In this document: piece by piece, positions 1,555-64,000 of the stretch
Numbering within the stretch: the stretch's first letter is position 1
Layout: each line of letters begins with the position of its first letter
Assembly (NCBI GenBank): GCA_964016885.1
Contig: OZ024746.1
Span: 31,310,001-31,374,000, forward strand
Length of the DNA stretch: 64,000 nt
Origin: Eledone cirrhosa
Taxonomy: Eukaryota
Direction of reading: 5' to 3'
Notes under the pieces: model-generated
Told to the model about the DNA's origin: nothing
Database searches by the model: none
What the model saw: only the letters and a program-made list of their open reading frames with translations
Translations under genes and position numbers: made by a program

Positions 1555-1995
1555 TGTCTTTGACACCATGACAGTGTGTCCATGACGTCAGAGTGTCTTT
1601 GACACCATGACAGTGTGTCCATGATGTCAGAGTGTCTTTGACACCATGACAGTGTGTTGATGATGTCAGAGTGTCTTTGACACCATGACAGTGTGTCCAT
1701 GATGTCAGAGTGTCTTTGACACCATGACAGTGTGTTGATGATGTCAGAGTGTCTTTGACACCATGACAGTATGTCAATGATGTCAGAGTGTCTTTAACAC
1801 CATGGGAGTGTGTCCATGATTTTGGAGTGTATTTCACACTGTGTGAGTGTGTCCATGATGTCAGAGCGTCTTTGACACCATGGGAGTGTGTCGATGATGT
1901 CAGAGTGTCTTTGTCACTGTGGGAGTATGTCCATGATGACGGAGTGTATTTCACACTATGCGAGTGTCTCCATGGTGTAAGAGTTTCTTTGACGC
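1555..1995. repeat. 39-bp minisatellite, ~11 copies, degenerating rightwards
   Basis: Unit gtgtctttgacaccatgacagtgtgtccatgatgtcaga; 13-aa periodicity in the overlapping ORFs. Confidence 0.95.
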
Positions 1996-2341
1996 CAGGA
2001 AATATGGCAAATATGCAATTCTCCAACTATTTTAACAAACACGAGACAAAGGAACAACAACAACAGCAACAACAATAGAGACTTGTGTAATAAATCTCAA
2101 TGGCTGTCGTGACAAATTCACTTGAGTTGAACATCAGAAATGCTTAACAAAGAGTGGAGAAATCAATACAACTCTCTGTTGATTCTATCAATATCTTTAT
2201 TGGTGTTGAAATTCTTGAAAAATGGATTTCTGGTGAGAATCCAAAGTGTTGAAGTTCGATATTGGATTTGTTATATTGATTTTTGAAAAAAAAAAATAAT
2301 AAACCTATCGATTATTGCAGGAAATTGGTTTAGTGCAACAT

Positions 2342-4600
2342 ATATAGTGACTATTGCTGTGTAAACTGTGTTATTGTGGTAAATACAGTTACTATTGCTG
2401 TGTAAACTGTGTTATTGTGGTAAATATAGTGACTATTGCTGTGTAAACTGTATTATTGTGGTAAATACAGTTACTATTGCTGTGTAAACTGTGTTATTGT
2501 GGTAAATACAGTTACTATTGCTGTGTAAACTGTGTTATTGTGGTAAATACAGTTACTATTGCTGTGTAAACTGTATTATTGTGGTAAATATAGTGACTAT
2601 TGCTGTGTAAACTGTATTATTGTGGTAAATACAGTTACTATTGCTGTGTAAACTGTGTTATTGTGGTAAATACAGTTACTATTGCTGTGTAAACTGTATT
2701 ATTGTGGTAAATATAGTGACTATTACTGTGTAAACTGTATTATTGTGGTAAATACAGTTACTATTGCTGTGTAAACTGTGTTATTGTGGTAAATACAGTT
2801 ACTATTGCTGTGTAAACTGTGTTATTGTGGTAAATACAGTTACTATTGCTGTGTAAACTGTATTATTGTGGTAAATACAGTTACTATTGCTGTGTAAACT
2901 GTATTATTGTGGTAAATATAGTGACTATTGCTGTGTAAACTGTATTATTGTGGTAAATACAGTTACTATTGCTGTGTAAACTGTATTATTGTGGTAAATA
3001 CAGTTGTAGTGACCTACATTCCGCGGGCTCACATACATTCTCTGTGCGTGATTTGGCTCAGTTCAGCCAATCAGCGCCAGTAGAAGAGGATGTATCCCTA
3101 CGCGCCCTGAGGAAGAAATTCCCCGCGAAGATTTGAAGAATCTCGCTCTTGTACCGGAAACTTCAAGCCAGCAACACGCATAATGTAACAGTGAGATATT
3201 GCACCCCTAGCCTCGCCGGCTTAACGGCGCAATGGCACATTCCCTTTTGTAACCTCTTTTTACCTGTAACTTCAACTATATAAATAAACAGACATTTCAT
3301 CTCTAATTACTGCGGTTGAAGTCGTTATTATGTTACTCGTGTCTCAATAACATCTTTTATCCATGCTGCTGGAATTGGCGACCTGACGAAAGGAATATTG
3401 TAAATAGATGGTAAATAGATCGAGGGACCTTCCCTCACGTCTATGTCAACAAGATAATCCAACGAGGATACTATCACTTACCACACTGGCAACTAACGAC
3501 CACTGATTCTACCACCCTGCTAAAGTGGCGATAACATCTATAACTAATACTGCTAAACAGTTACTATTGCTGTGTAAACTGTGTTATTGTGGTAAATATA
3601 GTGACTATTGCTGTATAAACTGTATTATTGTGGTAAATACAGTTACTATTGCTGTGTAAACTGTGTTATTGTGGTAAATATAGTGACTGTTGCTGTGTAA
3701 ACTGTGTTATTGTGGTAAATACAGTTACTATTGCTGTGTAAACTGTGTTATTGGGGTAAACACAGCTACTATCACTGTAAACTGTGTTATTGGGGTAAAC
3801 ACAGCTACTATCACTGTGTAAACTGAGTTATTGGGGTAAACACAGCTACTATCACTGTGTAAACTGAGTTATTGGGGTAAACACAGCTACTATCACTGTG
3901 TAAACTGTGTTATTGGGGTAAACACAGCTACTATCATTGTGTAAACTGACTTATTGGGGTAAACACAGCTACAATCACTGTGTAAACTGAGTTATTGGGG
4001 TAAACACAGCTACTATCACTGTGTAAACTGTGTTATTGGGGTAAACACAGCTACTATCACTGTGTAAACTGAGTTATTGGGGTAAACACAGTTACTATCA
4101 CTGTGTAAACTGAGTTATTGGGGTAAACACAGCTACTATCACTGTGTAAACTGTGTTATTGGGGTAAACACAGCTACTATCACTGTGTAAACTGAGTTAT
4201 TGGGGTAAACACAGCTACTATCATTGTGTAAACTGAGTTATTGGGGTAAACACAGCTACTATCACTGTGTAAACTGTGTTATTGGGGTAAACACAGCTAC
4301 TATCACTGTGTAAACTGTGTTATTGGGGTAAACACAGCTACTATCACTGTGTAAACTGTGTTATTGGGGTAAACACAGCTACTATCACTGTGTAAACTGT
4401 GTTATTGGGGTAAACACAGTTACTATCACTGTGTAAACTGTGTTATTGGGGTAAACACAGCTACTATCACTGTGTAAACTGTGTTATTGGGGTAAACACA
4501 GTTACTATCACTGTGTAAACACAGTTACTATCACTGTGTAAACTGAGTTATTGGGGTAAACACAGTTACTATCACTGTGTAAACTGTGTTATTGTGGTAA
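2342..4600. repeat. 41-bp minisatellite with two variant domains, interrupted by the LTR-like insert
   Basis: Unit ctattgctgtgtaaactgtgttattgtggtaaatacagtta switches to ctatcactgtgtaaactgtgttattggggtaaacacagcta near 3750. Confidence 0.95.
3005..3557 (+). mobile_element. Solo-LTR-like insertion (~553 bp) inside the 41-bp minisatellite
   Basis: Starts TGTAGT, ends GCTAAA (imperfect TIR), flanked by a CAGT or ACAGT duplication of the satellite unit. Contains CCAAT and AATAAA and is CpG-rich relative to the flanks. Confidence 0.65.
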
Positions 4601-43925: not shown

Positions 43926-44630
43926 TACATTCACATTATATTTAAAATATAAATCAAATATAAGGATAAGTACATGCATGTACAGCATGAAACGGTGTTT
44001 TAATTATAAACTCGGATACGAAACCTAAATATACCTTATCACGGATTACATACTTTTTTTTAAAACATTATAGAATCAATAAAGATCTTAAATTCAAGAG
44101 TCGCCATATATTTATCATTATTATTTGTAAAGTACCAGTAATGTTTTGGGTAATTGATGGCCTTGCGCCTAAAGTAGAAACAATTATTTGTAATACTATT
44201 AAAAATGCATTTGTTCATCCTCTTACAAACACCGATATATAAAATATATATATCTGTGTGTATATATATCTATATATCGTAAATTGAAAGCTTTTATTTG
44301 ACAGCGATTAAATTTATAGGAATAGTTGTCAAGATAAAGTAAAAGTGACATTAGATATGGTGAAATTATTATTACTACAAGAGATTATTTCTGTTTGACG
44401 GGACAGCAGCACATGTAGTTAGACATATATGGTTATATATGAAACAGACACGAGAGATATATGTATATCATGCTTGTTTGATCTGGAGTTGGCAACAGAA
44501 AGAACGATTAATTTCATGTCATCAATAAAAACAAAATTATTTGAGAACGATGGAGAAATTCAAATAATACAAGATAGAAAAGATTTTAGATTGCGATGGT
44601 AAACAAATAACAAGATATTGGTTTACTTAC

Positions 44631-44685
44631 ATAGAAGACGGCGACAAAGATATTTTGGAATGAGAGAAGAAACAGGAAAAGGAAG
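44631..44685 (-). promoter_or_regulatory. NACA: NACA non-coding exon 1 with pyrimidine-rich TCT/5'TOP-type start
   Basis: Minus strand reads CTTCCTTTTCCTGTTTCTTCTCTC...CTTCTAT|GTAAGT. Perfect donor at 44630-44625; TCT-like initiator near 44681, typical of translation-machinery genes. Confidence 0.7.
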
Positions 44686-44697
44686 TAGTTTAGTTTA

Positions 44698-44707
44698 GCG
44701 CATGCGC
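44698..44707. promoter_or_regulatory. NRF1-type palindrome GCGCATGCGC in the NACA proximal promoter
   Basis: Exact GCGCATGCGC about 15 bp upstream of the putative TSS in otherwise CpG-poor DNA. Confidence 0.6.
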
Positions 44708-45267
44708 AGATTCATCCCTCTTTTAAGGTGGACTGCTTTGTTTTTTTACTGTTATTAATAGTAAATCTATACACATTATATATGTTGTAGTTGTCCCAAT
44801 GTAAATAAGTATAATAATAGTTGATAACAGTAATTGAGAAAATCAGGTAAAGTACCAATGGAGACAGAACAAAAGTAGAGTGGCGCCTGTGAGGAAGCGA
44901 ACCCCGCATCTCTGTTCATTTTTTCCGTCTCCTGGAGTACTTCACCTGATTGTCTCTACTATTGCTTATAATGATTAACTATTGTTATTATAGTCTGTAC
45001 ATTGAAATAACTACCATTTCAGATTTACCCAATGTTTCTTAAGTCAGCTGGATGCTCATTCTATGTATCATATTATGTGTCATATTATGTATTAATATGT
45101 GGAACTCACGACCATACAATTTGAAAGTTTTTTTATTCACAGTTGTATAAAAATACAATATAATACTTACAGAACGGAAACACAAAAACAAAGGATATGT
45201 ACAAATATAAACGCTTAAAAGGGATAAAAAAAACATTAAAAAGAAGGAAAAAAAGGGGGGTTGCAAT

Positions 45268-50478: not shown

Positions 50479-51065
50479 TATATATATATTACATTATCTA
50501 TAATATATATCATCATCATCATTTAACGTCCATCTTCCACGCTAGCATGGGTTTGGACGGGAATTTTCTCACTTGAGGCAAGATTGGTTGTTTTGCTCGT
50601 ATAGGACTGTCTGGCGGGTTTTCTACGGCTGGATGCCCTTCCTAACACCAACCACGTTTACAGTGTGGACTGGGAGGTTTTTACCGTGTTACCTACACGG
50701 CCACATTACAGCGTGGACTGTGTGTTTTTTTTGTCGTGACACCTACACGACCTCATTTGTTTCGGACTGGATGTTGTGGTACCAACATAACATTACATTG
50801 GAAGGGGTGTGGGTAGTGGGACGGGGGTGTATTTTTGTTAGAGGTGCCTACTGACTGTAGGTTTCGCTTTATATATATATATATATAGAGATAGATATAG
50901 ATAGGTAAATATACACGGGTGTGTATGATTGTGTATAGAAGATTATATTAATAAGAGGAATTCCAACTTTGTCTGATTTACTCGTTTTATTTACAATCCT
51001 TTAAAATATATATAATGGTATTATAATGAAATAGTATGATAGAATATTAAATTCTAAGTGTTAAT

Positions 51066-51104
51066 TGAACAAGTACTTTCATGCTTTCGCAATCTTCAGG
51101 TTCA
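51066..51104 (-). ncRNA. Candidate minimal type I hammerhead ribozyme
   Basis: TGAAC-CTGAAGA-T-TGC(GAAA)GCA-T-GAAA-GTAC-TT-GTTCA. Stem I TGAAC/GTTCA, core CUGAAGA and GAAA, palindromic stem III AGTACT, CUU cleavage triplet. Confidence 0.55.
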
Positions 51105-51157
51105 TGATATGTGGTGACAGTCGAGTTTGCAATTTTCTCGTCTGTCACCACATATCA

Positions 51158-51195
51158 TGAACCTGAAGATTGCGAAAGCATGAAAGTACTTGTTC
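51158..51195 (+). ncRNA. Second, inverted copy of the candidate minimal hammerhead ribozyme
   Basis: Same motif with a 4-bp stem I (GAAC/GTTC). Confidence 0.5.
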
Positions 51196-52034
51196 TATCA
51201 TACTATTTCATTATAATACCATTATATATATTTTAAAGGATTGTAAATAAAACGAGTAAATCAGACAAAGTTGGAATTCCTCTTATTAATATATATATAT
51301 ATGTGTGTGTATGTATGCATTTAAAGGGTGGAGTACTGATGGGGATTAAGAAATGACAACAGTTAAAAAGAGTACTCGATACGTTGCTAGAGTATAGGCA
51401 TCTTTATTTTATATAAAAATAATATCTACAAGACTAAAATTGTTTTCTTCATACGAATGAAACAGTTCTAGTTCTGTAGAAGTTATTTTTATATAAAATA
51501 ACCATATGATATATGTATCATCCCCATCATCATCACTATCATTAACATCACCACCTCCACCTCAAACATCATCATTAACATCACCACCCCACCTCCAACA
51601 TCATTAATATCACCACCTCTACCCCCAACATTATCATTAACACCACCACCTCCACACCCAACATCATTATCACCACCTCCACCCCCCAACATTATCATTA
51701 ACATCATCCACTCCACCCCCAACATCATCATTAACACCACCACCTCCACCTCCAACATCATTAAATCTGATGTCTTTACAATGAATGTCCACTTATAAAC
51801 CTGTTTATTATACTTGTCATCTCTTTATTTCTACCTAATGTTAGTCTTCTACTTTATCACCACCACTAACACCATCACTACCAATACCAACTCCACCACC
51901 AACAATACCAACTCCACTACCACCAACAGCAGCACCATTACTACCACTACTACCATCACCAACAACACCAACACCAAAAACACCCACCACCACCAACAAC
52001 ACCAGCAACACTACCAATAACTTTCATTATGTAA

Positions 52035-52212: not shown

Positions 52213-53272
52213 ATGTAAAATCTCCCTATTTTGCCTCATTTCTCCCTGTTTGGGTTTTAGAGGTTGGCAGGTCTGCAGTACACTCTATGAGGTGGTAGTG
52301 TTGGTGCCATGATAAAATATACCCAGTACATCCTGTGATGTGGTAGTGTTGGTGTGATGATAAAATGGTGGTGATGACAAGTGTATCTAGGACTACACTA
52401 TCCAATGTGTCTCATTTTTTTTAAGATGGTAGAAATGCTGATGAAATTGTTAAGAGGTTCCAGCCTCACATTGAGGAAGTGTCTTTACTATAGTCATGGG
52501 TCTGACACATTACATGTTTATTTAACATGTCTGTCTGTTCCATTCATTTAACATGTGTGTCGCCATTCATTACTGCAACACTTATCTTTGAAACCAAACT
52601 AGACCCATTTAATTTGAGATAGATTTGGATGCTATTTCTAACGGGTCGAACAACCACGTTGAGGTTCTTGTTGTCTTGGAGATAATTTAGTTTGTTTGTC
52701 ACCCAGAGACCAATATTGTCAACTTTGTGTGTGTGTGTATATGTTTGTGTGTATATGTGCATGTGTGTATGTGTGTTGTTATCTCTAAATAACACTACTT
52801 AACTGCCTGGAAACAAAACTGATAGTAAAGTTAGTGTTAATCTCTCTCTCTCTTTCTCACTATATATATATGACGATAGTGTTGATTATGATATATAGTT
52901 TGTTTATCTATATTATAATAACTGGACAATCATTTGTTAGTCTGTCACACACACACAATGCTCTATCATAAATGTCCTAAATATTTTTTATCTAGAATTC
53001 ATGGAACACAAATTAATGGTCACTTTAGGCCAATATGGAATAATGGTTTCTAATTTAGGCACAGCATCAGCAATTTTGGTGAGAGTGGGGGATATTTTGA
53101 CCCCAGTACTTAACTAGTACATTGTTTTATCAACTCTGGAAGATGAATGGCAAAGTTGGCTTTGGCAGGATTTGAACTCAGAGCAAATACTGCAAAGCAT
53201 TTTGTCCAATGCTCGACCAATTCATCCAGCCAAAGTATTGAAAATATTTGTATTTCTTTACAGGAATGAAAG

Positions 53273-53387
53273 ATGCCAAGTGCTGGAGGTGTGTGTCCAC
53301 CTCTAATTACACCTTTACATAATAAACCTATATCAAACTCATCAACTACTAAGATTAATTTATCTACTTTAATTCAGTTAAGTTCAG
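53273..53387 (+). CDS. DZANK1: DZANK1-like coding exon 1 (MPSAGGVCPPLITPLHNKPISNSSTTKINLSTLIQLSS)
   Basis: Acceptor CAG at 53263, in-frame upstream TGA, donor GTAAG at 53388. Resembles the DZANK1 N-terminus (recalled MTAGSVCVPQIIPL). Confidence 0.82.
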
Positions 53388-54386
53388 GTAAGTGGTTTTA
53401 GTAATTTCAATGATTTCATGAAAAATACTGTAACCTAGTATAACCTGCTTCATGGCTGAGTGGTCATTGACTAAACCAGCTCCCCCACCAGACCCTGGTC
53501 TGAGGAGGGGGGTAAGTGGAACTCCAGCAGCACAAAAGACAAGCTTTTAAAAGGGCAGATTAACTCCTCAAAATCAACAGCCATCCACCCCAATTATGGG
53601 TTAAATAGCCTCACCAACCTGCAAGTGACTAAATGTGAGTAAGGTTACACTCCTGACATGACCAAGATCAAACAGAAGTGGTTGAGGTCAACCAAGGAGA
53701 GTTTCCTTCAGCAGAAGTGAGAAAGCCCTGGATTTGATTAGATTTGCATGAGAAATTTAGTAGATAGAAACTGTGTAGAAATCCACCAAAAAGACAGTTT
53801 CTTTTTTTAGATGGTAGATTTAACTTTTTTGTTACCAACCCATCACTAACCACCTCTGGTTCTATGAAACAAAACCAGATATTTTAAAAAGTTCTTTTTC
53901 AAATTAAAACTGTTCAACAATTTGTTACAAGAACCAATTGTTAAGTTACAAATACTATCTAAATAATGAAATAATAATTTTAGTAAATTCTCCCAAATTA
54001 TTGATTAATTAAACTGTCCAATATCTGCATGTGATGTGTGATGCTTCATTGTAGTAAGACGTACACAGTGAATACAGAGAATATATGAAGGCTGGAGAGA
54101 AATGAAACAAACATGCTTCAATAGATATACAGTATTAATATGTATGAATGATGAAGCATGGATGAGCTGAGAGAAAAGCTGGGTATAAAAGGAATCAAAT
54201 GTAGTGTGCAGTAGAGAAGACTGCATTGGTATAGACATGTGTTGTATATAGACGATAATTGTTATATGAAGAAGTGCCAAGAAATTCCACTACCAATTCA
54301 CTACCTATAGTAAATAATAATAATATATTTAATGTTGCTGAGAATGTAGAGTTTAAGCTAAGCTGGTTGTCTCAATCTGTTTCCAG

Positions 54387-54540
54387 ATACACAAGGTTGC
54401 CGTATATATTTCACAACAGATGGGACAAGACCTAGTCCCTTTAAACGTAAAGTGGCAGGCAGAGAAATCACATTCAAGTATTTTGCTCCATTTACCCTGA
54501 AACATGGTAAAAGATCAATCAAAACCATTGCTGTTTCCAG
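54387..54540 (+). CDS. DZANK1: DZANK1-like exon 2, Fn3-associated-like domain (DTQGCRIYFTTDGTRPSPFKRKVAGREITFKYFAPFTLKHGKRSIKTIAVS)
   Basis: 154 nt, phase 1 to 2. IYFTTDG..P and TFKY..P.TL..GK..IK.IAVS match the DZANK1 N-terminal domain. Confidence 0.9.
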
Positions 54541-55065
54541 GTAAAAATATAGGATTTTCATCTTTTTCATTTAGCTTTTTATTACCTTAGTACCAAAAAT
54601 ACAGGTATGGCTGAGTGGTTAACTAGCTTGCTTCACAATCATTAGGTTATGGGTTTGATCTCACTGTGGGAAATCTTGGGCCAGTGTTATTTAGGTTAGC
54701 CTCGAGTTGACCCAAGCCTTGTGAGTGATACTGGGTCGACAGAAACAGGGTGGAAGCCTGTTGGAAGGACTGTATCTGTAATTGAAAGGTCCAGCCTTGT
54801 CACACACTGTGTTAAATTACAAGACATAAACACAAACACACACACACAAACATATATTTATGATGGTCTTCTGCACTTTCTATCTACCAAATTTCACTCA
54901 CAAGGATTCACTAAGGCTATAGTAGAAGAGACTTCTCCAAAGAGCTAAGTGGGATGATTTTACTGAAAACTATACAGTTGTGAAGCAAATTTCTTAACCA
55001 CACATCCATGCAACAGAATTTGTAACAAAATCCTTGCTCTGTTCAAAACTCTAAATATATTCTAG

Positions 55066-55207
55066 GGATGGTCTTCAGGAAAGTGCTGTGGTCACCAAAA
55101 CATTTTTTGTTGAAAACGTTCACAAATCCGAAGTTGAGGCTTCAAATGAATACAGCAACCCAATAAAGAGTGAAGAACCATTGAAATCCTCCTCTTATTT
55201 TACCAAA
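55066..55207 (+). CDS. DZANK1: DZANK1-like exon 3 (RDGLQESAVVTKTFFVE...)
   Basis: 142 nt, phase 2 to 0, donor GTAAGT. D..QS.VVTK.F.V motif completes the domain. Confidence 0.88.
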
Positions 55208-55986
55208 GTAAGTTCCTATTAATATATATTTCCTATATAAGTTCCTATTAATATATATTTCCTATAGAAGTTCCTATTAATATATATTTCACATTGCTCC
55301 AGTTTACTCAGCTGTAGAAATGAGATGTTAGGACTGGAGTCCCTATCATTCCACTGCAAAGTGGTTGTGGAGGTGCCACAGCAAAAAAGCACCCAACCCA
55401 CACTGTAAAGTGGACATGTAGGCGCCATGAAAAAAAACACCCAGCACTCACTGTAAATGAGGTTGGTGTTAGGAAGGGCATCTAGCTGTAGAAATCAAGC
55501 CAGAATCAGTTCCCGTCCCACCCTTGCAAGCAGGGAAAAGCGGACGTAAAATGATGAATATGATGATGATGATGTTAAGATGTGTGTGTTAATTGTACAT
55601 CACCTTTCTTTATTCACCTTTCTTTATTTCCAGTAACTTTCATGCACCAACACACTTTTCCTTGTCCTCCTCTTTCAATCTCTTCTATATTTCACCGTGG
55701 ATTGTTTCTCTGCCCAACACTGGCTGCTGGTCTCTGTCCACTGAGGCATGTTTGCCCATCACTATCATTGACAACATTTGGCTGTTTTAATGGCTGTTCT
55801 AGGGATGAGTTTTCTCATTTTTATATGAATTCAAATACACTCTCGTTTTGTCTCAATCAGAGACAACAATATTTATTCATTCATATATATATATATTGTA
55901 ATTTAACTGAGAAATACAAGAATAATATTTTTTTTACAAATTCTTCAGGTTTCTTTTAATATATTTTTATCTTCCATTAATGCCAG

Positions 55987-56128
55987 ACTAACCAATTCCA
56001 GTCTGAAGACAGGGAAGATGACAGAGATGACAAATTACTGATGCCTCTTCACCAATCCAAGGAATTTCCTGTTCATCATGCTTGGCCAGAGAAAAATGAA
56101 GATTTCTACAACTACCAAAATTCTACAG
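55987..56128 (+). CDS. DZANK1: DZANK1-like exon 4 (TNQFQSEDREDDRDDKLLMPLHQSKEFPVHHAWPEKNEDFYNYQNST)
   Basis: CAG acceptor after a pyrimidine tract, open frame, phase 0 to 1 fits both neighbours. Donor GTTTTG is weak. Confidence 0.68.
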
Positions 56129-56614
56129 GTTTTGAGATTTTAATCCTCTCATTACCATGTTTTCTAATGATTGCCTCTGTCTCCTGTGATTTTCAAATAA
56201 TTCTGAAAAAATCAAGAATTTGGAGGGATTTAGTAATATCACTAACTTTCTTATTATTAAGTTGGTGTTTGAGGGTGGTAGATTGGCAGTATTGATAGTG
56301 TGTCAGACAACATGCTTTGTGGCATACAGTTAAGGCCCTTTAGGTTGTGTGTTCATTACGGAGTCAGTAAAATAAAGTACCAGTAATGCACTGGGGTAGA
56401 TTTAATTAACTTTCCCCTTCATTCCAAAGTTTCTGGCCTTGTGCCAAATGTGGAAACAATTATTAAGTTGGTGTTTGGAACATAACTTAAAGGTTTTTAC
56501 ATAAAATTATGATAGGAGGTTTTTAGATAAATATAAACTAAGCATGCTTTGTTATCAAATGTGTTAATAATTAACTGTGGCACTGTTATAAGATATTTAT
56601 TAATATATTTGTAG

Positions 56615-56778
56615 AGATGCAGGAACTACGGAAATCTATCCAGCCCACCAACTATTCCGGGACACAGATCAATATGTTTGGAATGTCTCAAGGCATGCCA
56701 GGGAATTTCAGTGAATTCTTTAACCCCTTCCAGCCCAAGACTACACAGTATGGATTTATTACTGAACAAATGATAAGA
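56615..56778 (+). CDS. DZANK1: DZANK1-like exon 5 (EMQELRKSIQPTNYSGTQINMFG...YGFITEQMIR)
   Basis: TAG acceptor, GTAAGT donor, phase 1 to 0, open frame (ORF 56617..56838). Confidence 0.78.
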
Positions 56779-57444
56779 GTAAGTACTCAGTTTATATGGA
56801 GAAAGGAGCAATACCCATGGTCTTCAGAGACCCTCTGAAATGTTGTTGGTATTCTGTTTAAATGTTTACAGATCTACTCCTTTAGGAAAGACCTGAACAA
56901 GAAGGAAGTCCCAGAGGTCAGAGAGGACTGGTTATAGTGATTTAGTGCAGGGCAGGGAGAGGGGTTACTCTCAAAATTATTGGTGCTGGTGTTTGTTAAT
57001 TTATTTTGTTTTTGCAGTCCCCAATTTTTTTTTTTCTTTTATGTAGTTTAGTCAGAAGCGGAAAAGTCTGTGCCCATTAGATTTGCTGGGCCTCTGAGAC
57101 TTGGCAGAGATGGAAAAAAAAGTTTTTATTACAGAAATATTCTTTGTTAAACTATTTATTGTTGTATACAAGGGAGGTGTCTGGATTTATTGTTAGTGGT
57201 TGGTTGGTTGTTTGGTTAGTTGTTTGTTTGTTTGGTTAGTTGGTTGGTTTGCTAGCTGGCTGGTTAGTTGGTTTAGTAGATCTGGCTCAACATAAGCCAT
57301 ACCAGTGGCCACTGGGGAGACATGCACTCTTTTTACGCCCCTCTCACACATACACAGGCCCCAACAGATAGACACACACACACATACACAAATATAGATG
57401 TTGACCCACTACTACAACACTTGCTATATATTTACTTTTTCCAG

Positions 57445-57637
57445 GGCCTGAATGATAATAACAAGGCTGTAACTGTTGGTGAAATAAGGAACATCATTGA
57501 AGAATCTCAGAATAAACAGGCTCCTATTGTCAGACAATCTGTCCCCTTAGCTTTACCTGAGGTTCCTGTTGAGACAAAGATTATTGAACGTCTTACATAT
57601 AAGGACCCACCACTGCACGATGTCAGTATTGGTGAAG
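57445..57637 (+). CDS. DZANK1: DZANK1-like exon 6 (GLNDNNKAVTVGEIRNIIEE...KDPPLHDVSIGE)
   Basis: Strong acceptor TTTTTCCAG, donor GTGAG, phase 0 to 1. The end resembles the recalled P.L..ISPGRG motif. Confidence 0.83.
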
Positions 57638-58454
57638 GTGAGTAGGAGCATTTCCTTTTTAATGACTAATCCCTCTCAGAAGATGATCCTCTAAAAAATA
57701 TAATCATACATATGTAGCGACAAGGGTTCTTTTGTTTCACGTTGAAGTAGCTAGCTAATAGGTAGATGGCGCTGTATATTTCACAGATGTTATTTCTGGT
57801 GGCTGTACACATATATATATATATATTTAACGAAGGGTATTAGTAGAAAATCGTTAAATGGATTAACATGATAGTTAGATGTAATAACAAGAATAATGTT
57901 TTTTAGTTTATATATGGTTTACTTCACTTCAATCAAAAAGTACAATAAAACAGTTACTAAGAGTTGAGAAGGTTGACAATGTTATTTTGTTGTAGATCTG
58001 AAAACAGCAAGCGACGAGATAAAATCTGTTGGTGGTTAAAGTTTGTTGCAGTTGTCATAGTAGTTCTTGGCCTGAGTCTGAGACCATAGTGAGTGAGAGA
58101 GATTAATGGTCTGTAATTGATTGTATACCACATTGTTCTTTAGTAATGGTTTGTATACCTCTGAATAGTCTGTAGTAGTTCTCGTCGTTAGTCTATTCTC
58201 TCTGTATTTCCTTAGACCTCTAGGGTCTGTTGATAGCGGTGAATCTTTACATAGTTTGTTGTGTATCGTAGAGCTCTGATCTATCTGTTCAAGGTGGGAA
58301 AATATAGGCTTTATATACCTGTCGCTTTCTGCCTCTCACCTTGAGGAGATAGCCAACGCATCAACCTGTTTACACCAAAAGGGTGGTGACCTAGAATTTG
58401 ATCTTTAGGTGTCACCCAAGGTTCAAGGCGCGGACAGATTTCACTACATATATA

Positions 58455-58710
58455 TAGTATACTTTGGGCATGTGGTTAGAATGTCTCAGGAAAGAATTGT
58501 TGGACAGATTTTATGGGCAAAACCAACCAGCAAGAGACCCAAGAGCAGACCCCGAGCAAGATGGTTGGAAAACATTGACGAGCTTGACTGGTCACACTTG
58601 GTGATGCAGCCATATCAGTTAGAGACGGTTGCTTCTGACAGAACCTGCTAGGAGTATTTGGGGACTCTGCCTACATGACCCTCTCAGGAATAAGTGGGAG
58701 AAGAAGAAGA
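58455..58710 (+). mobile_element. RTE-type LINE 3' fragment with (GAA)n tail
   Basis: YFGHVVRM..ERI..IL..P..KRPKSRPRARW. Confidence 0.75.
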
Positions 58711-59524
58711 TATATATTTATATATATGTGTTTTGGTTTGGTTTCTACAGCTAGATTCACTTCCTAGCACCAATAATTTTACAGTGTGTCCATGTGTTGA
58801 GTGAAGAAGTTAGGAGTATACTATATATACACACACACACATATATATATATATACATAGTTAGCAAGTATTATTTATAGTTATCTGCATTGTGGGCAGC
58901 TTCCTCCAAAACCAAACATAGTTTCATACATATCATCATTGCTTTTACATCGCCTGTTCCATGCTGGCATCGGTTAGATGGGATGATTGGAGACTATATA
59001 TAGGTTGAACAATGAAAATTAGTGCTTAATTAAACAATGAACTAATTAAGCACTAAAACTTTCCCTTTTGTTTTCATTGTTCACCCTATGTATATGATTC
59101 TCTAGCTCATTTGAATACTCAACAAAATCTAATATGATGAGATCCTACCATAAAAACAAACTCTTATCACCTGATCTCATTAGGAGTTTTATTTCCATAC
59201 TACATAGAGCTCTATTAGCATTATTGGCTCTACCATAGACAGGTATTTACCAGTATTTATAGTTTAAGGAGACAACAGAGATACAAAAAATCTTATTAGT
59301 TTCACACTTTATATTGGAAAGAGGAAAGAAAGTTTGATGTGTCAGACTTAAGCCCTTCTTCAGGAGTACAAAATAGAGACAGAATCACATAGGAGAACCA
59401 GAAAAAGGTCCCTACCATTGCTCGCAATAGGATAACTTGTCTAACCCATGGCAACGTGGAAAAATGGACGTTAAACGGTGATGATGATGATGATATATAT
59501 ATAATATCCAATATTTATTTGTAG

Positions 59525-59628
59525 GTAATCTCAACGAACAAGTTCTACATGTTTACAGTCATTTATTGAAATACACTAAAGTTAACAGAGAATTTTGTTC
59601 TAAAATCTCACATCCCAAAATTGGCAAA
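59525..59628 (+). CDS. DZANK1: DZANK1-like exon 7 (GNLNEQVLHVYSHLLKYTKVNREFCSKISHPKIGK)
   Basis: 104 nt, phase 1 to 0, donor GTAAG. Matches the recalled DZANK1 block [30 protein letters not shown]. Confidence 0.87.
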
Positions 59629-59866
59629 GTAAGGTTCTCATATTTGATTTTTCCTTTTATACTCACCATTACCATCTGTATCGCATGATCTAATCATCTC
59701 ATTCCATTTCTTTTCACAACATTCATCTCTCTCTCTCTGACAATCCACTCATCCATCAACAATTCTTATCTCAAACAAAAGTTAATGGTAAAACTGGAAT
59801 ATTTAATCTCTAGATTATTGCTTGTAAGATTTTGTTAGAAATTGAACCCCTATCCATTCTTTCCAG

Positions 59867-59942
59867 GTTTTAACTGGTCATTTCACCGATGAAGGAGATT
59901 GCTACAGGATAACTCTGGTTATGGAAAAGCCTGGTATTCTAC
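59867..59942 (+). CDS. DZANK1: DZANK1-like exon 8 (VLTGHFTDEGDCYRITLVMEKPGIL); gene continues beyond the window
   Basis: TTCTTTCCAG acceptor, GTAAGT donor, phase 0 to 1. Resembles the recalled LISATVHEDGCEVSIRLNY. Confidence 0.82.
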
Positions 59943-60380
59943 GTAAGTTATTAATCAAATAAACTGTTCAAATTCGCAAACTGTTCAAATTTGTAATCAT
60001 ATATATATATACATATATATATAAAATAGAAGTAATATATCTACAGTATTGTTCATCTTTATCCTTTTTGTGACATCATTGTAAATGCTTTATTTACCTC
60101 TGAAGATTCCAAATTAGGGCATATCTATGGGTGCATTCAGATCAAATTTAATTTCATTCTGTAAGCATGCATGGCATTGCTTTATTTAGATGAAACAATT
60201 TGTAAGGAATAAAATATGTTGATAAGTGCCTATTGATTCACCATCATAAATATCTGTTTATATATATTTATATATATATATATTATCATATATATAGATG
60301 TATATATATATATATTTGGATCTAGCTGTTGAAACGGCCGAAGCTCAGCCGTCAGGGTCCTGTATATTATCATATGTATA

Positions 60381-63300
60381 TCATCATCTTCGTTTAACGT
60401 CCATCTTCCACGCTAGCATGGGTTAGACGGGAGTTGTCCCATTTGAGGCAAGGTTGGTCGGGTGACCGTGTCTCGCTCATATAGGACTATCTGTCAGGTT
60501 TTCTATGGCTGGATGCCCTTCCTAACACCAACCACATTTACAGTGTGGAACTGGGAACTTTTTACCGTGTTACCTACACGGCCACATTACAGCGTGGACT
60601 GTGTGTTTTTTTTTCGTGACACCTACACGATCTCGATCTCATTATCTCGTGGTGTTGGTGGGAGTGGAAGGATAGGGTAGGGGTTGTGGATTGGGGTGTA
60701 TATTTGGTTAAGAGGTGCCTACTGATTGTAGGTTTCGCTTTGTACATAGGCAAGGCGGGTCTTCTGCATTACTGTGTAGCGCCAAAGATCTCAGTCCAGT
60801 GACATTGTCTTAGAGAAGTGCAAGTGTGTAAGGTTGGAATTTATCAGATCGTCCCAGGTTTTTCTGGGTCTACCTACTCCATAACTACCATCAATTTTGT
60901 TCGCCCTGCACTTTTTTATACAGCTGTCGTCTTTCATGCGCATCATGGGACCATACCAACGTAGTCTTCTCTCAAGTAAACAGCATCTGATCCCTCTTAT
61001 TCCTAATTTCTCACTTAGTTCATTTATGCTTTGCCGTTCACGTATATTACTATTAGACATCCAACGGAGCATGTAAGCTTCGTTCCTTTCCAGTCTACGC
61101 AGGTCCTCTGCACGTAATGCCCATGTCTCACTGCCATGTAGCATTGCTGTTCATATGCAGGCATCATACAATCTGCCATTCATTTTTAGAAAGAAACCTT
61201 TTGTGGCCAACAGCGGTATAAGCTCTCTGAACTTTTTCCATCCCGTTCTGACTCTGGCTACTGTACTTTCAGAGCACCCTCCACCACTGCTGATTTTGTC
61301 ACCCAGGTAACGGAAAGTGTCCACTATTTCTATAGAACCATCTGGGCAATAGAAGGAGCTAGTATCCTGTGGACACTTGCTACTTATTGCACCTGAGCAT
61401 CGGCCACATATAAAGTCTACGTTCTTAGATAGTTTACCTGTGATCCCACTACATCTTTTATGTACCCATACTTTGCATTTGGGACATAAAATGGAATTTC
61501 TGCCTACTCCTTTCCTACACACTGAGCATGGCCATTTCCCTGAGGGCATCTGTACCCTATTTTCCTTTCTACAAACTAGAACTTTAGTCTTAGACAAGTT
61601 AACTTTAAGGCCTTTTGATTCTAAGCCATGCTTCCATGTTTGGAATTTCTTCTCTAGTGATTCAGCTATGAGCGTTAGATCATATACGTATAGGAGTTCC
61701 CATGGGCAGCTGGTCTTGAACTCCTCTGTTATAGCCTGAAGGGCAATAATAAATAGGAGGGGGCTAAGGACAGAGCCTTGAGAAACACCAAATTTTACAC
61801 TAAATTCTTCACAATATTCATTGTTAATTCTAACCTTACTGACTGTTTCTTTATACATAGCTTGTATAGCTCTCACAAGCCATTCATTCATCTACACCTA
61901 GTTTTCTAAGAGCCCACCAGATAATGGAGCGAGGGACTCTGTCAAAGGCTTTCTCCAAGTCAACAAAAGCTAAGTAGAGGGGTTTACTTTTAGCTAGGTA
62001 CTTCTCCTGTAGTTGTCGTACAAGGAAAAGAGCGTCTGTGGTACTTTTACCTGACACAAACTTAAACTGCATTTCATCTAGATCAATTTGCTCTCTGATT
62101 AGTTGCGCTATAACTCTTTCTGTGACCTTCATGACCTGGTCAACTAACTTAATGCCTCTATAGTTTCCCCTATCTAGAGCATCCCCTTTATCCTTGTAGC
62201 AGTTAATGATGATGCTGTTACGCCAGTCTTTTGGTATGACCCCATTCTGAACTACTTTGTTAACTATACGAGTGACCATAGTATGTCCCACCATTCCAGA
62301 TGCCTTCAGCATCTCAGCAACTATCTCCGAAGGCCCAGCTGCTTTGCCTGTCTTCATATCTTTTATTGCCTTACTTATTATACTACCTTTAACTTGCACC
62401 GCTGGTCCTTCTATTGGATTGATTTGGGGCAGACTATCTTTTTCCCATTTATTCTCCTCATTTTATAGTCTCTCGTAGTGACACTTCCAGGCTATCTTCT
62501 TATCAGTATCAGTGAGGATAAGTATACCGTTATCATTATGGACACACTTCTCCCGGACAATATCCCGGTTTTCCTTGACACATTTTCTAGCAATCCTGAA
62601 CACCTCCCGTTTTTGGTCCTCACGTAGAACATGCTTGAACTTTCTATCCTCTGTTTCCCTTTTTGCAAGGTACACTTGTCTCCTAGCTTCTCTCCTGGCC
62701 ACTTGATAGTGTTCTTTACTTCCCCCATCCTGCCATACTTTCCAAGCCTGCTTTTTGGCCTTGATTGTCTTCTCCACCTTACTGTTCCACCACCAATTTA
62801 CTCTCCTCCTGCCAATAGGTCTGCTCCAGCCACAGATTTCATCCGTTGCTTTCAGCAGGTTCACTTTCAAGAATTCCCACTGTTCCTCTATATTGAACGT
62901 CTCTAATTGCTCTTCCTTATTGTCAAAGGCATCAAGTAATAAGCTTTTAAATTTGTCACTGGCTACGGGTTCCTTCAACTTCCATATTCTTCTCCTCAAG
63001 GTAGGCCTCCTCTGTTGTTGAGTACATCTATTCCTGACTATGAGGTCACTAACTACTAGGCTATGTTGGGAGGTGCAGTCTTCATGGGGGAGGGATTTAG
63101 TGTTTACAATAGACACTTTGTCCCATCTTCTAGTAAGGATATAATCTATCTGGCTAGCGCGTCCCCCTGATCTATAGGTGATCAAGTGGTTTTCTCGTTT
63201 TTTGAAGTTTGTGTTACAGATAGTTAGGTTATTAACATCACAGAATTCCAGGATTCTGAAGCCCTCCTCATTTCTATTTTCAACCCCATAGCCTCCATGG

Positions 63301-64000
63301 ATTCCATCATAGCCATCACTATGTTGTCCAACGTGACCGTTTAGATCGCCAGCAATAATTAAGTAGTCGCTGTCGGTTATTTAGGAGGTAGACCAGATTG
63401 GGGTGCATAAGCGGATATTATTGTCACAGTAGTTCTATTTAGAACTAGTCTTATTTTAATTATTCTGTCATTCACTCTATTTACGTCAATTACCTTATCT
63501 ACCCATTTTTCAGCTAACATAATTCCTACACCACCCAGTCCGTTGTCATTTCCCAACCAGAATAGTTTATAGCATCGTTTTTTACCCACGATGAATCTGG
63601 CAGACCCACCTCTTCACCTCGTCTCTTGAATACAACAAACATCAACTTCTTTACGTTCAAGCATCTCTACAACCTCATTTGAGCGACTTTTCAATGTGCC
63701 TATGTTCATGGTACCAACTCTGAAGTTGGGAGGGTGGGATAGATGGGTTGGAGGGGCAGGGAGGGGTGTGGGAGATGGAATTATGTTGGTCATCCGTGTC
63801 TGAAATAAAGAGGGGTCCTTGTATTCTCGTCCTGCAGCGAGAGGTGAATTTATCTTTATCTGTGACATTGTCATTGAGTGCTTTAGACTTTCCAAATTCC
63901 GCAGTCCACCCATCAAACAGGTCTAAACTTAAGGAATAGTAACCACGGTGGTAGCTTTGCTATACTGATTTGTTAGAGAACTTACTATAAGCCGCTGAGT
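60381..64000 (-). mobile_element. Near full-length, disrupted RTE-clade LINE (APE endonuclease, RT, PHD-like finger, 3' UTR, (GAT)n tail) inside a DZANK1-like intron
   Basis: ORFs show VGTMNIGTL..DVCCIQETR, ISAYAPQ and QIDYIL (APE); NYRGIKL, AFVDLEKAFDRV and QGSVLSPLLF (RT; YADD degraded to YVYD); CSVC..C..C..WVHKRC..C..C; RLRWYG..GRPRKTW. Multiple frameshifts and stops. Confidence 0.95.

What the first reader, a model, noticed from the sequence alone, without database searches (positions are those of the whole stretch)
50944..51293. Palindrome carrying two inverted minimal hammerhead-ribozyme cores upstream of the DZANK1-like start codon
Seen: a ~350-bp palindrome whose inner arms each read TGAAC-CTGAAGA-T-TGC-GAAA-GCA-T-GAAA-GTAC-TT-GTTC(A), i.e. 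stem I, CUGANGA, a GNRA-capped stem II, GAAA, a palindromic mini stem III and NUH. Established: Penelope-like elements carry minimal type I hammerheads that work as dimers, and they often form inverted terminal repeats. Inference: a transcript of either strand carries one sense hammerhead plus its antisense copy, so folding could switch between self-cleavage and a long dsRNA. That dsRNA would be a candidate ADAR substrate, which matters if this is a cephalopod. Caveats: a U-U at the base of stem II and a CUU triplet may weaken cleavage.
Basis: partly seen in the sequence, partly recalled or inferred. Interest (0 to 1): 0.75.

Follow-up and report, generated by a model that had tools for sequence, protein, structure and literature searches.

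The report
Fold-back stub of a Penelope retrotransposon
This hairpin-shaped DNA is one short, protein-less, head-to-head insertion of a Penelope-like jumping gene whose hammerhead-ribozyme motif occurs over 5,000 times in this genome; its ribozymes are predicted to be locked in the hairpin rather than act as a switch, although a small excess of family copies that begin at the predicted cut site hints that the parent RNA likely does cut itself.

Summary
The palindrome and both minimal hammerhead cores are real. [quoted passage not shown] The locus has the standard Penelope layout: an inverted 5'-truncated copy, a ~53-nt tail on one arm only, and a (TA)n target. 21 such two-hammerhead palindromes turned up among 127 sampled arms. 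The proposed cleavage/dsRNA switch is not supported: on either strand the antisense arm is made first, and the ribozyme fold costs about 60 kcal/mol. ADAR editing is plausible but untested. The downstream gene is an annexin A6-like gene with an Fn3-associated N-terminus, not DZANK1; its ATG lies 1.98 kb away. Family-level extras: 57 of 100 arms start near a site 31 nt behind a TATA box (likely the RNA start); 26 of 34 fold-backs pair the two fixed 3' ends; junctions at the predicted cut site are ~2.6-fold enriched (34 vs 9-18), a possible fossil of in vivo cleavage. The scan noted the same architecture and readings before, on other DNA of this genome.

The parts
50870..50887 (.). (TA)n target, left flank
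   Evidence: sequence; most family arms end in TA or TA-rich repeats
50891..50943 (-). Penelope 'tail' (~53 nt), on the left arm only; in full-length copies it runs on into the 5' leader and ORF1 start
   Evidence: tail concept from PMC8557442 and PMC11167929
50944..51137 (-). left arm: pLTR from position -34 (relative to stem I start) to the first 3' end site; 98-99% identical to full-length copies
51067..51103 (-). minimal type I hammerhead motif; predicted cut after CUU between 51071 and 51070
   Evidence: sequence; cut position inferred from hammerhead numbering
51137..51293 (+). right arm: inverted pLTR copy from position -22 to the first 3' end site, no tail, 25-bp deletion after 51195
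   Evidence: centre junction and deletion junction each occur once in the genome
51159..51195 (+). minimal type I hammerhead motif; predicted cut between 51191 and 51192
   Evidence: sequence
51294..51302 (.). (TA)n target, right flank
   Evidence: sequence
53264..53387 (+). first coding exon (ATG 53273) of the neighbouring annexin A6-like gene; not part of the element

Best explanation
The palindrome is a short, promoter-less, head-to-head insertion of the terminal repeat of a Neptune/Nematis-type Penelope-like retrotransposon, likely made when the element's enzyme copied the 5' part of its RNA from both cut ends of a (TA)n target, and its two hammerhead motifs are predicted to be inert passengers locked in a hairpin. 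Steps: (1, shown) the arm is the pLTR of a 4.2-kb element with RT and C-terminal GIY-YIG. (2, inferred) The RNA starts at -40, 31 nt behind a TATA box in the pLTR. (3, from the in vitro work on PAc, applied here by inference) The RT starts at two internal sites on the RNA, and the tail is the stretch between them. (4, inferred) Each cut strand primes at one of the two sites, both cDNAs run off near the RNA start and are joined by microhomology; this gives one arm with the tail and one without. (5, predicted) If the host reads through the locus, it folds into a ~160-bp duplex, not a ribozyme, and would be an ordinary ADAR substrate. (6, inferred) In the parent RNA the hammerhead likely cuts occasionally, as a dimer or with protein help.
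For: 5,173 exact 37-nt cores (2,599 + 2,574; reversed-pattern control 0). Long copies share 3.1-3.6 kb upstream of the arm, with PF00078 and PF01541 in that order and a CX4CX2C linker. L033 has the same two-armed layout around a 3.5-kb body. Among 100 arms picked by a 3' flank anchor, 57 start at -48..-30, with the mode at -40. A TATA box (TATAAAAG or TATATAAG) begins 31 nt upstream in 63 of 73 matches that reach that far; 3 more scored at 33 and 7 had none; overlapping loci were not de-duplicated. Of 34 fold-back pairs, 26 join one tail end with one no-tail end, 8 two tail ends, 0 two no-tail ends (chi-square p=3e-4 against independent choice). Arms mostly share a subfamily haplotype (12 of 24 identical against 7.8% for random pairs). 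Hairpin MFE is -256/-253 kcal/mol, and the hammerhead fold is 59-62 kcal/mol worse. This locus was not re-copied as a unit.
Against: No RNA data could be tested, so neither the RNA start nor transcription of this locus is shown. Snap-back of a single cDNA is not excluded for this copy, and some short family palindromes have junctions that fit snap-back (19 of 100 strings, by eye). The tail here (~53 nt) is longer than the 30-40 bp described. The PF00078 scores (27.6-29.5 bits) are just under the curated cut-off of 29.6. Clade assignment rests on the linker motif, not on a tree.
Confidence: 0.88

Rival explanations
1. One reading: the locus is a regulatory switch in which the host transcript alternates between hammerhead self-cleavage and a long ADAR-edited duplex.
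For: Both cores are intact. The locus may lie in the first intron of the annexin gene: a splice acceptor sits 9 nt before the ATG and a candidate shared promoter with the NACA gene lies near 44.7 kb (inference). Heavy editing could in principle loosen a duplex (recalled).
Against: The antisense arm is transcribed first on both strands, the sense core is 97.5-99.9% paired to it in all prefixes, and the fold costs about 60 kcal/mol. There is one sense core per transcript. Intact cores are expected from the copy's youth (98-99% identity to full-length copies). Per-copy decay of the catalytic core (13 of 880 cells, 1.5%) does not differ from non-polymorphic flank (157 of 7,680, 2.0%; p=0.31).
Confidence: 0.03
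2. Same origin, but made by snap-back: one cDNA folds on itself near the RNA start and is extended into the inverted arm.
For: The arms are near-identical and share a haplotype. Small native hairpins lie at -40..-14 and +32..+44, and recurrent junctions there fit self-priming (by eye).
Against: The outer ends fall at two fixed, paired sites (26 of 34), which snap-back does not predict. The arms of this copy differ at -18, and both letters occur elsewhere in the family.
Confidence: 0.07
3. A MITE (non-autonomous DNA transposon with long terminal inverted repeats and a TA target) that carries hammerhead-like sequence.
For: Palindromic, about 350 bp, flanked by TA.
Against: The ends are asymmetric (tail), the centre junction is unique, family centres vary, and arms continue into RT/GIY-YIG ORFs.
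Confidence: 0.01

Closest known systems
Canonical endonuclease-bearing Penelope-like elements, Neptune/Nematis type (Craig et al. 2021, PMC8557442; passages read)
   Same: RT then C-terminal GIY-YIG with a CX2-5CxxC linker; pLTR with hammerhead; adjacent inverted 5'-truncated copy; one-sided tail; microsatellite target.
   Different: Tail about 53 nt rather than 30-40. The long copies seen have two overlapping ORFs (449 aa and 775 aa, second in the -1 frame, U UUU UUA in the overlap) where the paper's abstract speaks of a single ORF. A TATA-box promoter is inferred, whereas Drosophila Penelope is TATA-less (PMC2377424, passages).
[quoted passage not shown]
   Same: Type I topology, full catalytic core, 4-5 bp stem I, palindromic stem III region; the paper already reports dual motifs 100-700 bp apart on opposite strands.
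   Different: Stem II is only 3 bp, closed by U-U instead of the highly conserved G10.1-C11.1; triplet is CUU.
PAc, Poseidon element of the green anole, in vitro (Frangieh et al. 2024, PMC11167929; parts 1-2 of 4 and passages read)
   Same: AT-rich target, both strands cut and extended, two internal RT start sites that delimit the tail, hammerhead upstream of them.
   Different: Different clade. They saw no strand preference between RT start sites and no RNA-seq ends at the cut site; here the two ends are paired within an insertion, and genomic 5' ends are modestly enriched at the cut site.

Membership tests
EN+ Penelope-like element | RT with C-terminal GIY-YIG endonuclease upstream of the repeat | tested here: met
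   PF00078 (E 3e-6, 27.6 bits, below cut-off 29.6) and PF01541 (E 3e-6, above cut-off) in L149:1837-4161; also L031. Met for the family; this copy has no ORF.
EN+ Penelope-like element | Partial-tandem pLTRs flanking the ORF | tested here: met
   L145: two direct hammerhead copies 4,202 bp apart around the body
EN+ Penelope-like element | Adjacent inverted 5'-truncated copy and one-sided tail | tested here: met
   this locus; 26 of 34 fold-back pairs
EN+ Penelope-like element | Single ORF | tested here: not met
   ORF1/ORF2 overlap in the -1 frame in all long copies translated (L032, L033, L035, L145, L146, L148, L149); PMC8557442 Fig. 1 legend allows a frameshifted ORF1 in some PLE types, and I could not see which
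Neptune/Nematis clades | CX2-5CxxC linker before GIY-YIG | tested here: met
   CNDSRCGTC / CNDNRCGTC
Neptune/Nematis clades | RT phylogeny placing it in Neptune rather than Nematis | not tested
   no reference set fetched
Minimal type I hammerhead (PLE) | Core C3 U4 G5 A6 N G8 A9, G12 A13 A14, A15.1-U16.1, H17; stem I; palindromic 15.2-16.2 | tested here: met
   sequence of both arms; AGUACU palindrome pairs across strands in the predicted dimer
Minimal type I hammerhead (PLE) | G10.1-C11.1 pair closing stem II | tested here: not met
   U and U in 80 of 80 and 78 of 80 copies; U-U also closes stem II in at least two other motif families of this genome (by eye)
Minimal type I hammerhead (PLE) | Selection on the motif | tested here: inconclusive
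   0 of 37 motif sites against 17 of 113 flank sites are subfamily-polymorphic (p=0.007; several flank sites lie in a TA run that aligns poorly); per-copy decay equal; no covariation within the family
Minimal type I hammerhead (PLE) | Self-cleavage as a dimer | not testable with these tools
   only indirect: excess of 5' ends at the cut site
DZANK1 (neighbouring gene) | Zinc-ribbon and ankyrin domains after the N-terminal domain (domain list recalled) | tested here: not met
   homologs carry 8 annexin repeats, no such families; annexin exons downstream

The most novel reading that the evidence does not exclude
The genome holds a fossil record that this stripped-down hammerhead (3-bp stem II closed by U-U, CUU triplet) cuts in vivo. 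A minority of family insertions, on the order of 1%, begin at the predicted cut, including palindromes in which both arms end there and chimeras in which the RT jumped from that end into the ORF. Together with the RNA-start pile and the paired 3' ends, this would map start, cut and both priming sites of a Penelope RNA from DNA alone, and answer the open question whether minimal PLE hammerheads cleave in cells.
Probability: 0.55. Interest if true: 0.5.

Novelty: new member of a known kind. Interest (0 to 1): 0.25.

Why it matters
The locus itself is ordinary repeat DNA. The family matters modestly. The papers read here report low or protein-dependent cleavage in vitro and no in vivo sign of it, so an excess of genomic 5' ends at the cut site makes that question testable. 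The paired ends support a two-primer origin for the inverted copies typical of Penelope elements. Several hundred perfect ~160-bp hairpins from one family are also a ready source of dsRNA in an animal group known for heavy A-to-I editing (recalled).

Tried and rejected
Rfam: no hammerhead family matched; only hairpin-shaped miRNA models below their gathering scores. RNA evidence: no RNA holder listed. The three listed runs are contigs of one sample and one study, and no piece spans the palindrome, so they neither confirm the junctions nor show editing; their loose ends at 50944 and 50903-50906 merely repeat the two family end sites. Editing scars in DNA: no A>G or T>C excess in paired arms (10 A>G and 9 T>C of 141 changes in 68 paired arms; 5 and 13 of 84 in 59 solo arms); 1 of 127 arms had 3 A>G. 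Idea that the two arms come from two different RNAs: rejected for most (18 of 24 pairs differ at 0-1 of up to 11 diagnostic sites; 3 differ at 3 or more). Idea that -40 is a splice acceptor: copies keep the CAG and share no upstream exon, and the TATA spacing fits a start site better. A stimulatory structure behind the U UUU UUA site: none found (MFE -3 to -5 kcal/mol). Fused ORF1-RT relatives: none at E<=0.001 among 6,001 candidates, weak evidence. Lunse et al. on dimeric PLE hammerhead variants was not held, so I could not check whether U-U-closed variants were assayed there. Sequence look-up in earlier findings gave nothing. Literature searches for cephalopod PLE ribozymes, for genomic ends at the cut site and for frameshifted Neptune elements listed no paper on these points; only listings were seen for most hits, and no supplement was read.

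Full report
Observation. The palindrome is as described: outer arms 50944-51044/51193-51293 are 100% complementary over 101 nt, inner arms 97% over 62 nt, with an 11-nt loop. The right arm lacks 25 bp directly behind its hammerhead and differs at one base near the centre. Both cores are complete (minus 51067-51103, plus 51159-51195). Positions below are counted from the first G of stem I (0), so the predicted cut lies between +32 and +33. Rfam has no matching hammerhead model.

Family. A DNA search with the right arm gave 45 matches from 40 of 68 candidates scored. The exact 37-nt motif occurs 5,173 times and a 37-nt 3' flank 6,308 times, with 0 for both reversed controls. Six stretches around long copies showed 3.1-3.6 kb shared upstream of the arm in three of them. 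[quoted passage not shown] L145 holds two direct copies of the motif 4,202 bp apart. The left arm of the window is 98-99% identical to such copies. This is an endonuclease-bearing Penelope-like element of Neptune/Nematis type by the linker criterion of PMC8557442 (passages); no tree was built.

Anatomy of this insertion. The left arm continues for about 53 nt beyond the palindrome (50891-50943) and the right arm does not. Both ends meet (TA)n. PMC8557442 describes exactly this unit: an inverted 5'-truncated copy next to the pLTR and a tail at one end only. PMC4209133 (parts 1-2 of 4) already reports dual minimal hammerheads 100-700 bp apart on opposite strands. Among the first 100 listed exact cores, 44 lie in 22 divergent pairs, 13 of them with spacing of 140 bp or less like this one (counted by eye). 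If those 66 Mb of C1 are typical, about 670 such short palindromes have both cores exactly intact. The centre junction and the deletion junction each occur once, so this palindrome is a terminal product and was not re-copied.

How it was likely made. I fetched all 100 listed flank-anchored places; they yielded 127 arms, 100 with the anchor. 57 of these 100 start at -48..-30 (23 at -40), 23 further upstream, 9 at +27..+39 and 11 elsewhere. A TATA box begins 31 nt before -40 in two sequence variants (63 of 73 matches; 3 at 33, 7 without; overlapping loci not removed), so -40 is likely the RNA start. The window's arms begin at -34 and -22 and lack the TATA box. 3' ends fall at two sites: 29 at the no-tail site, 69 after the tail, 2 other. 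In 34 fold-back pairs the combination is 26 mixed, 8 tail/tail and 0 no-tail/no-tail (p=3e-4); in the 21 pairs that keep both hammerheads it is 18, 3 and 0. PMC11167929 (parts 1-2 of 4) shows in vitro that a Penelope protein cuts and extends both strands of AT-rich DNA, starts RT at two internal RNA sites, and that the tail is the stretch between them. The simplest reading is priming from both cut ends on the 5' part of one RNA, run-off at the RNA start, and joining. This step is inferred. Arms mostly share a subfamily haplotype (12 of 24 pairs with at least 9 scorable sites identical, 18 within one difference; random pairs 7.8% identical; 10 of 34 pairs dropped for too few sites). That fits one template but does not separate two-primer synthesis from snap-back.

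The switch. On both strands the antisense arm comes first. The MFE of the 389-nt unit is -256 (plus) and -253 (minus) kcal/mol; forcing stems I and II with a free core costs +62 and +59; in prefixes ending 12-50 nt into the sense motif its bases are 97.5-99.9% paired to the antisense arm. In isolation the motif folds weakly (-4 to -5 kcal/mol) and pairs as a dimer through the AGUACU palindrome and stem I (-18.0; -13.3 for the form with one active core). So the motif suits a dimer, but this locus cannot supply one. A read-through transcript would be a long duplex and, from established knowledge of ADAR, a likely editing substrate; this was not testable. Whether it is transcribed depends on the first exon of the downstream gene. 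An acceptor 9 nt before the ATG implies an upstream exon, and a candidate shared promoter with the NACA gene (PF01849) lies near 44.7 kb. An intronic position is therefore likely but not shown.

The neighbouring gene. The exon at 54387 matches Fn3_assoc. All 7 proteins found are octopod annexins, about 92% identical over this exon. They map exon by exon from ATG 53273, the two scanned carry 8 annexin repeats, and annexin exons follow within 20 kb past the window. The DZANK1 label reflects only a shared N-terminal domain (recalled).

Is the ribozyme under selection and does it cut? In 80 anchored copies that span it, the catalytic core changes at 13 of 880 cells (1.5%) against 157 of 7,680 (2.0%) at non-polymorphic flank sites (p=0.31), as expected for dead copies. 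None of 37 motif sites, but 17 of 113 flank sites, vary between subfamilies (p=0.007; some of the 17 lie in a poorly aligned TA run), which suggests constraint in the active lineages. There is no covariation within the family. Other hammerhead-like families in the fetched DNA keep the core while stems I, II and the 4-nt palindrome differ, and at least two also close stem II with U-U (by eye; their link to Penelope elements not tested). The G10.1-C11.1 pair called highly conserved in PMC4209133 is absent. For cutting, matched whole-genome patterns that need a foreign base right before the native sequence gave 34 junctions at +33 against 10 (+27), 9 (+30), 18 (+36) and 16 (+69) (binomial p=3e-5). 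After removing 2 double counts and 4 apparent mutants from the +33 set only, 28 remain (p=0.002 against the four uncurated controls; p=0.09 against +36 alone). Of the 30 +33 loci read in context, three have both arms ending at +33 (L208, L213, L220) and three join +33 to ORF sequence in sense (L195, L207, L215). In the anchored sample 9 of 20 starts between -29 and +104 fall in +27..+39 (13 of 134 positions; p=5e-5; three come from fold-back pairs or share a locus). A by-eye tally of 100 of 426 matches gave 18 starts at +24..+31, 64 at +32..+37, 3 beyond, and 15 native copies with small changes; 19 of the 64 are two recurrent fold-back junctions. Against this: the peak is broad, a small native hairpin at +32..+44 can favour junctions there, and PMC11167929 found no RNA-seq ends at the cut site of its element and no need for cleavage in vitro. 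I put in vivo cutting at about 55%.

Earlier notes of this scan. After I had drawn the two-site, start-site and cut-site readings from my own calls (notes), a look-up showed that other windows of this genome were read the same way. An earlier look-up had already mentioned two fixed outer ends in a retrozyme family and ADAR scars in other Penelope fold-backs; the latter prompted my check for scars, which was negative. These notes are not independent support.

Papers seen. PMC4209133 parts 1-2 of 4; PMC11167929 parts 1-2 of 4 and passages; PMC8557442, PMC6765202, PMC2377424 and PMC6431247 passages; bioRxiv 10.64898/2026.07.22.740005 part 1 of 5. Lunse et al. was not held. No supplement or figure was seen; PMC8557442 Fig. 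1 and the supplements of PMC4209133 may already show a frameshifted ORF1 in this clade or a U-U-closed variant.

Verdict. A real but ordinary fold-back Penelope stub; the switch is not supported. Interest 0.25, carried by the family-level hint of in vivo cleavage.

Noticed in passing
L149:581-1927 and 1837-4161 (also L032, L033, L035, L145, L146, L148): Full-length elements have two overlapping ORFs (449-aa ORF1 with no Pfam family; 775-aa RT-GIY-YIG frame in -1) with a U UUU UUA slippery heptamer in the overlap in every long copy printed; candidate programmed -1 frameshift in an endonuclease-bearing Penelope element; no stimulatory hairpin found.
   Followed up: partly
L148/L149 (G000:C1:21871995-21880759): Two long copies sit head to head, both starting at +32/33 (the predicted cut site) and ending after the tail: an 8.8-kb palindrome that looks copied from cut, unit-length RNA.
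   Followed up: partly
window 19041 (+) and 26754 (-): Two further minimal hammerheads of another AT-rich family with a long stem II; similar motifs occur as inverted pairs in introns of the annexin gene past the window (L067, L071).
   Followed up: no
window 53264-59944 (+) and L067-L068: Annexin A6-like gene whose N-terminus is an Fn3_assoc/CHB_HEX_C domain, conserved in octopods; an unusual domain combination for an annexin.
   Followed up: partly
window 44629-44850: Candidate bidirectional promoter: pyrimidine-rich first exon of a NACA gene on the minus strand, a GCGCATGCGC box, and a plus-strand donor at 44848 that may end the annexin gene's first exon (inference).
   Followed up: no
window 59003-59085: A small imperfect palindrome in an annexin intron, possibly a MITE (by eye).
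   Followed up: no
window 61150-63930 (-): Broken LINE with APE and RT frames in an annexin intron; RTE-like by recall.
   Followed up: no
L183:306-926 and L169: Tandem array with 310-bp period carrying a hammerhead with U-U-closed stem II and CGCG palindrome; retrozyme-like.
   Followed up: no
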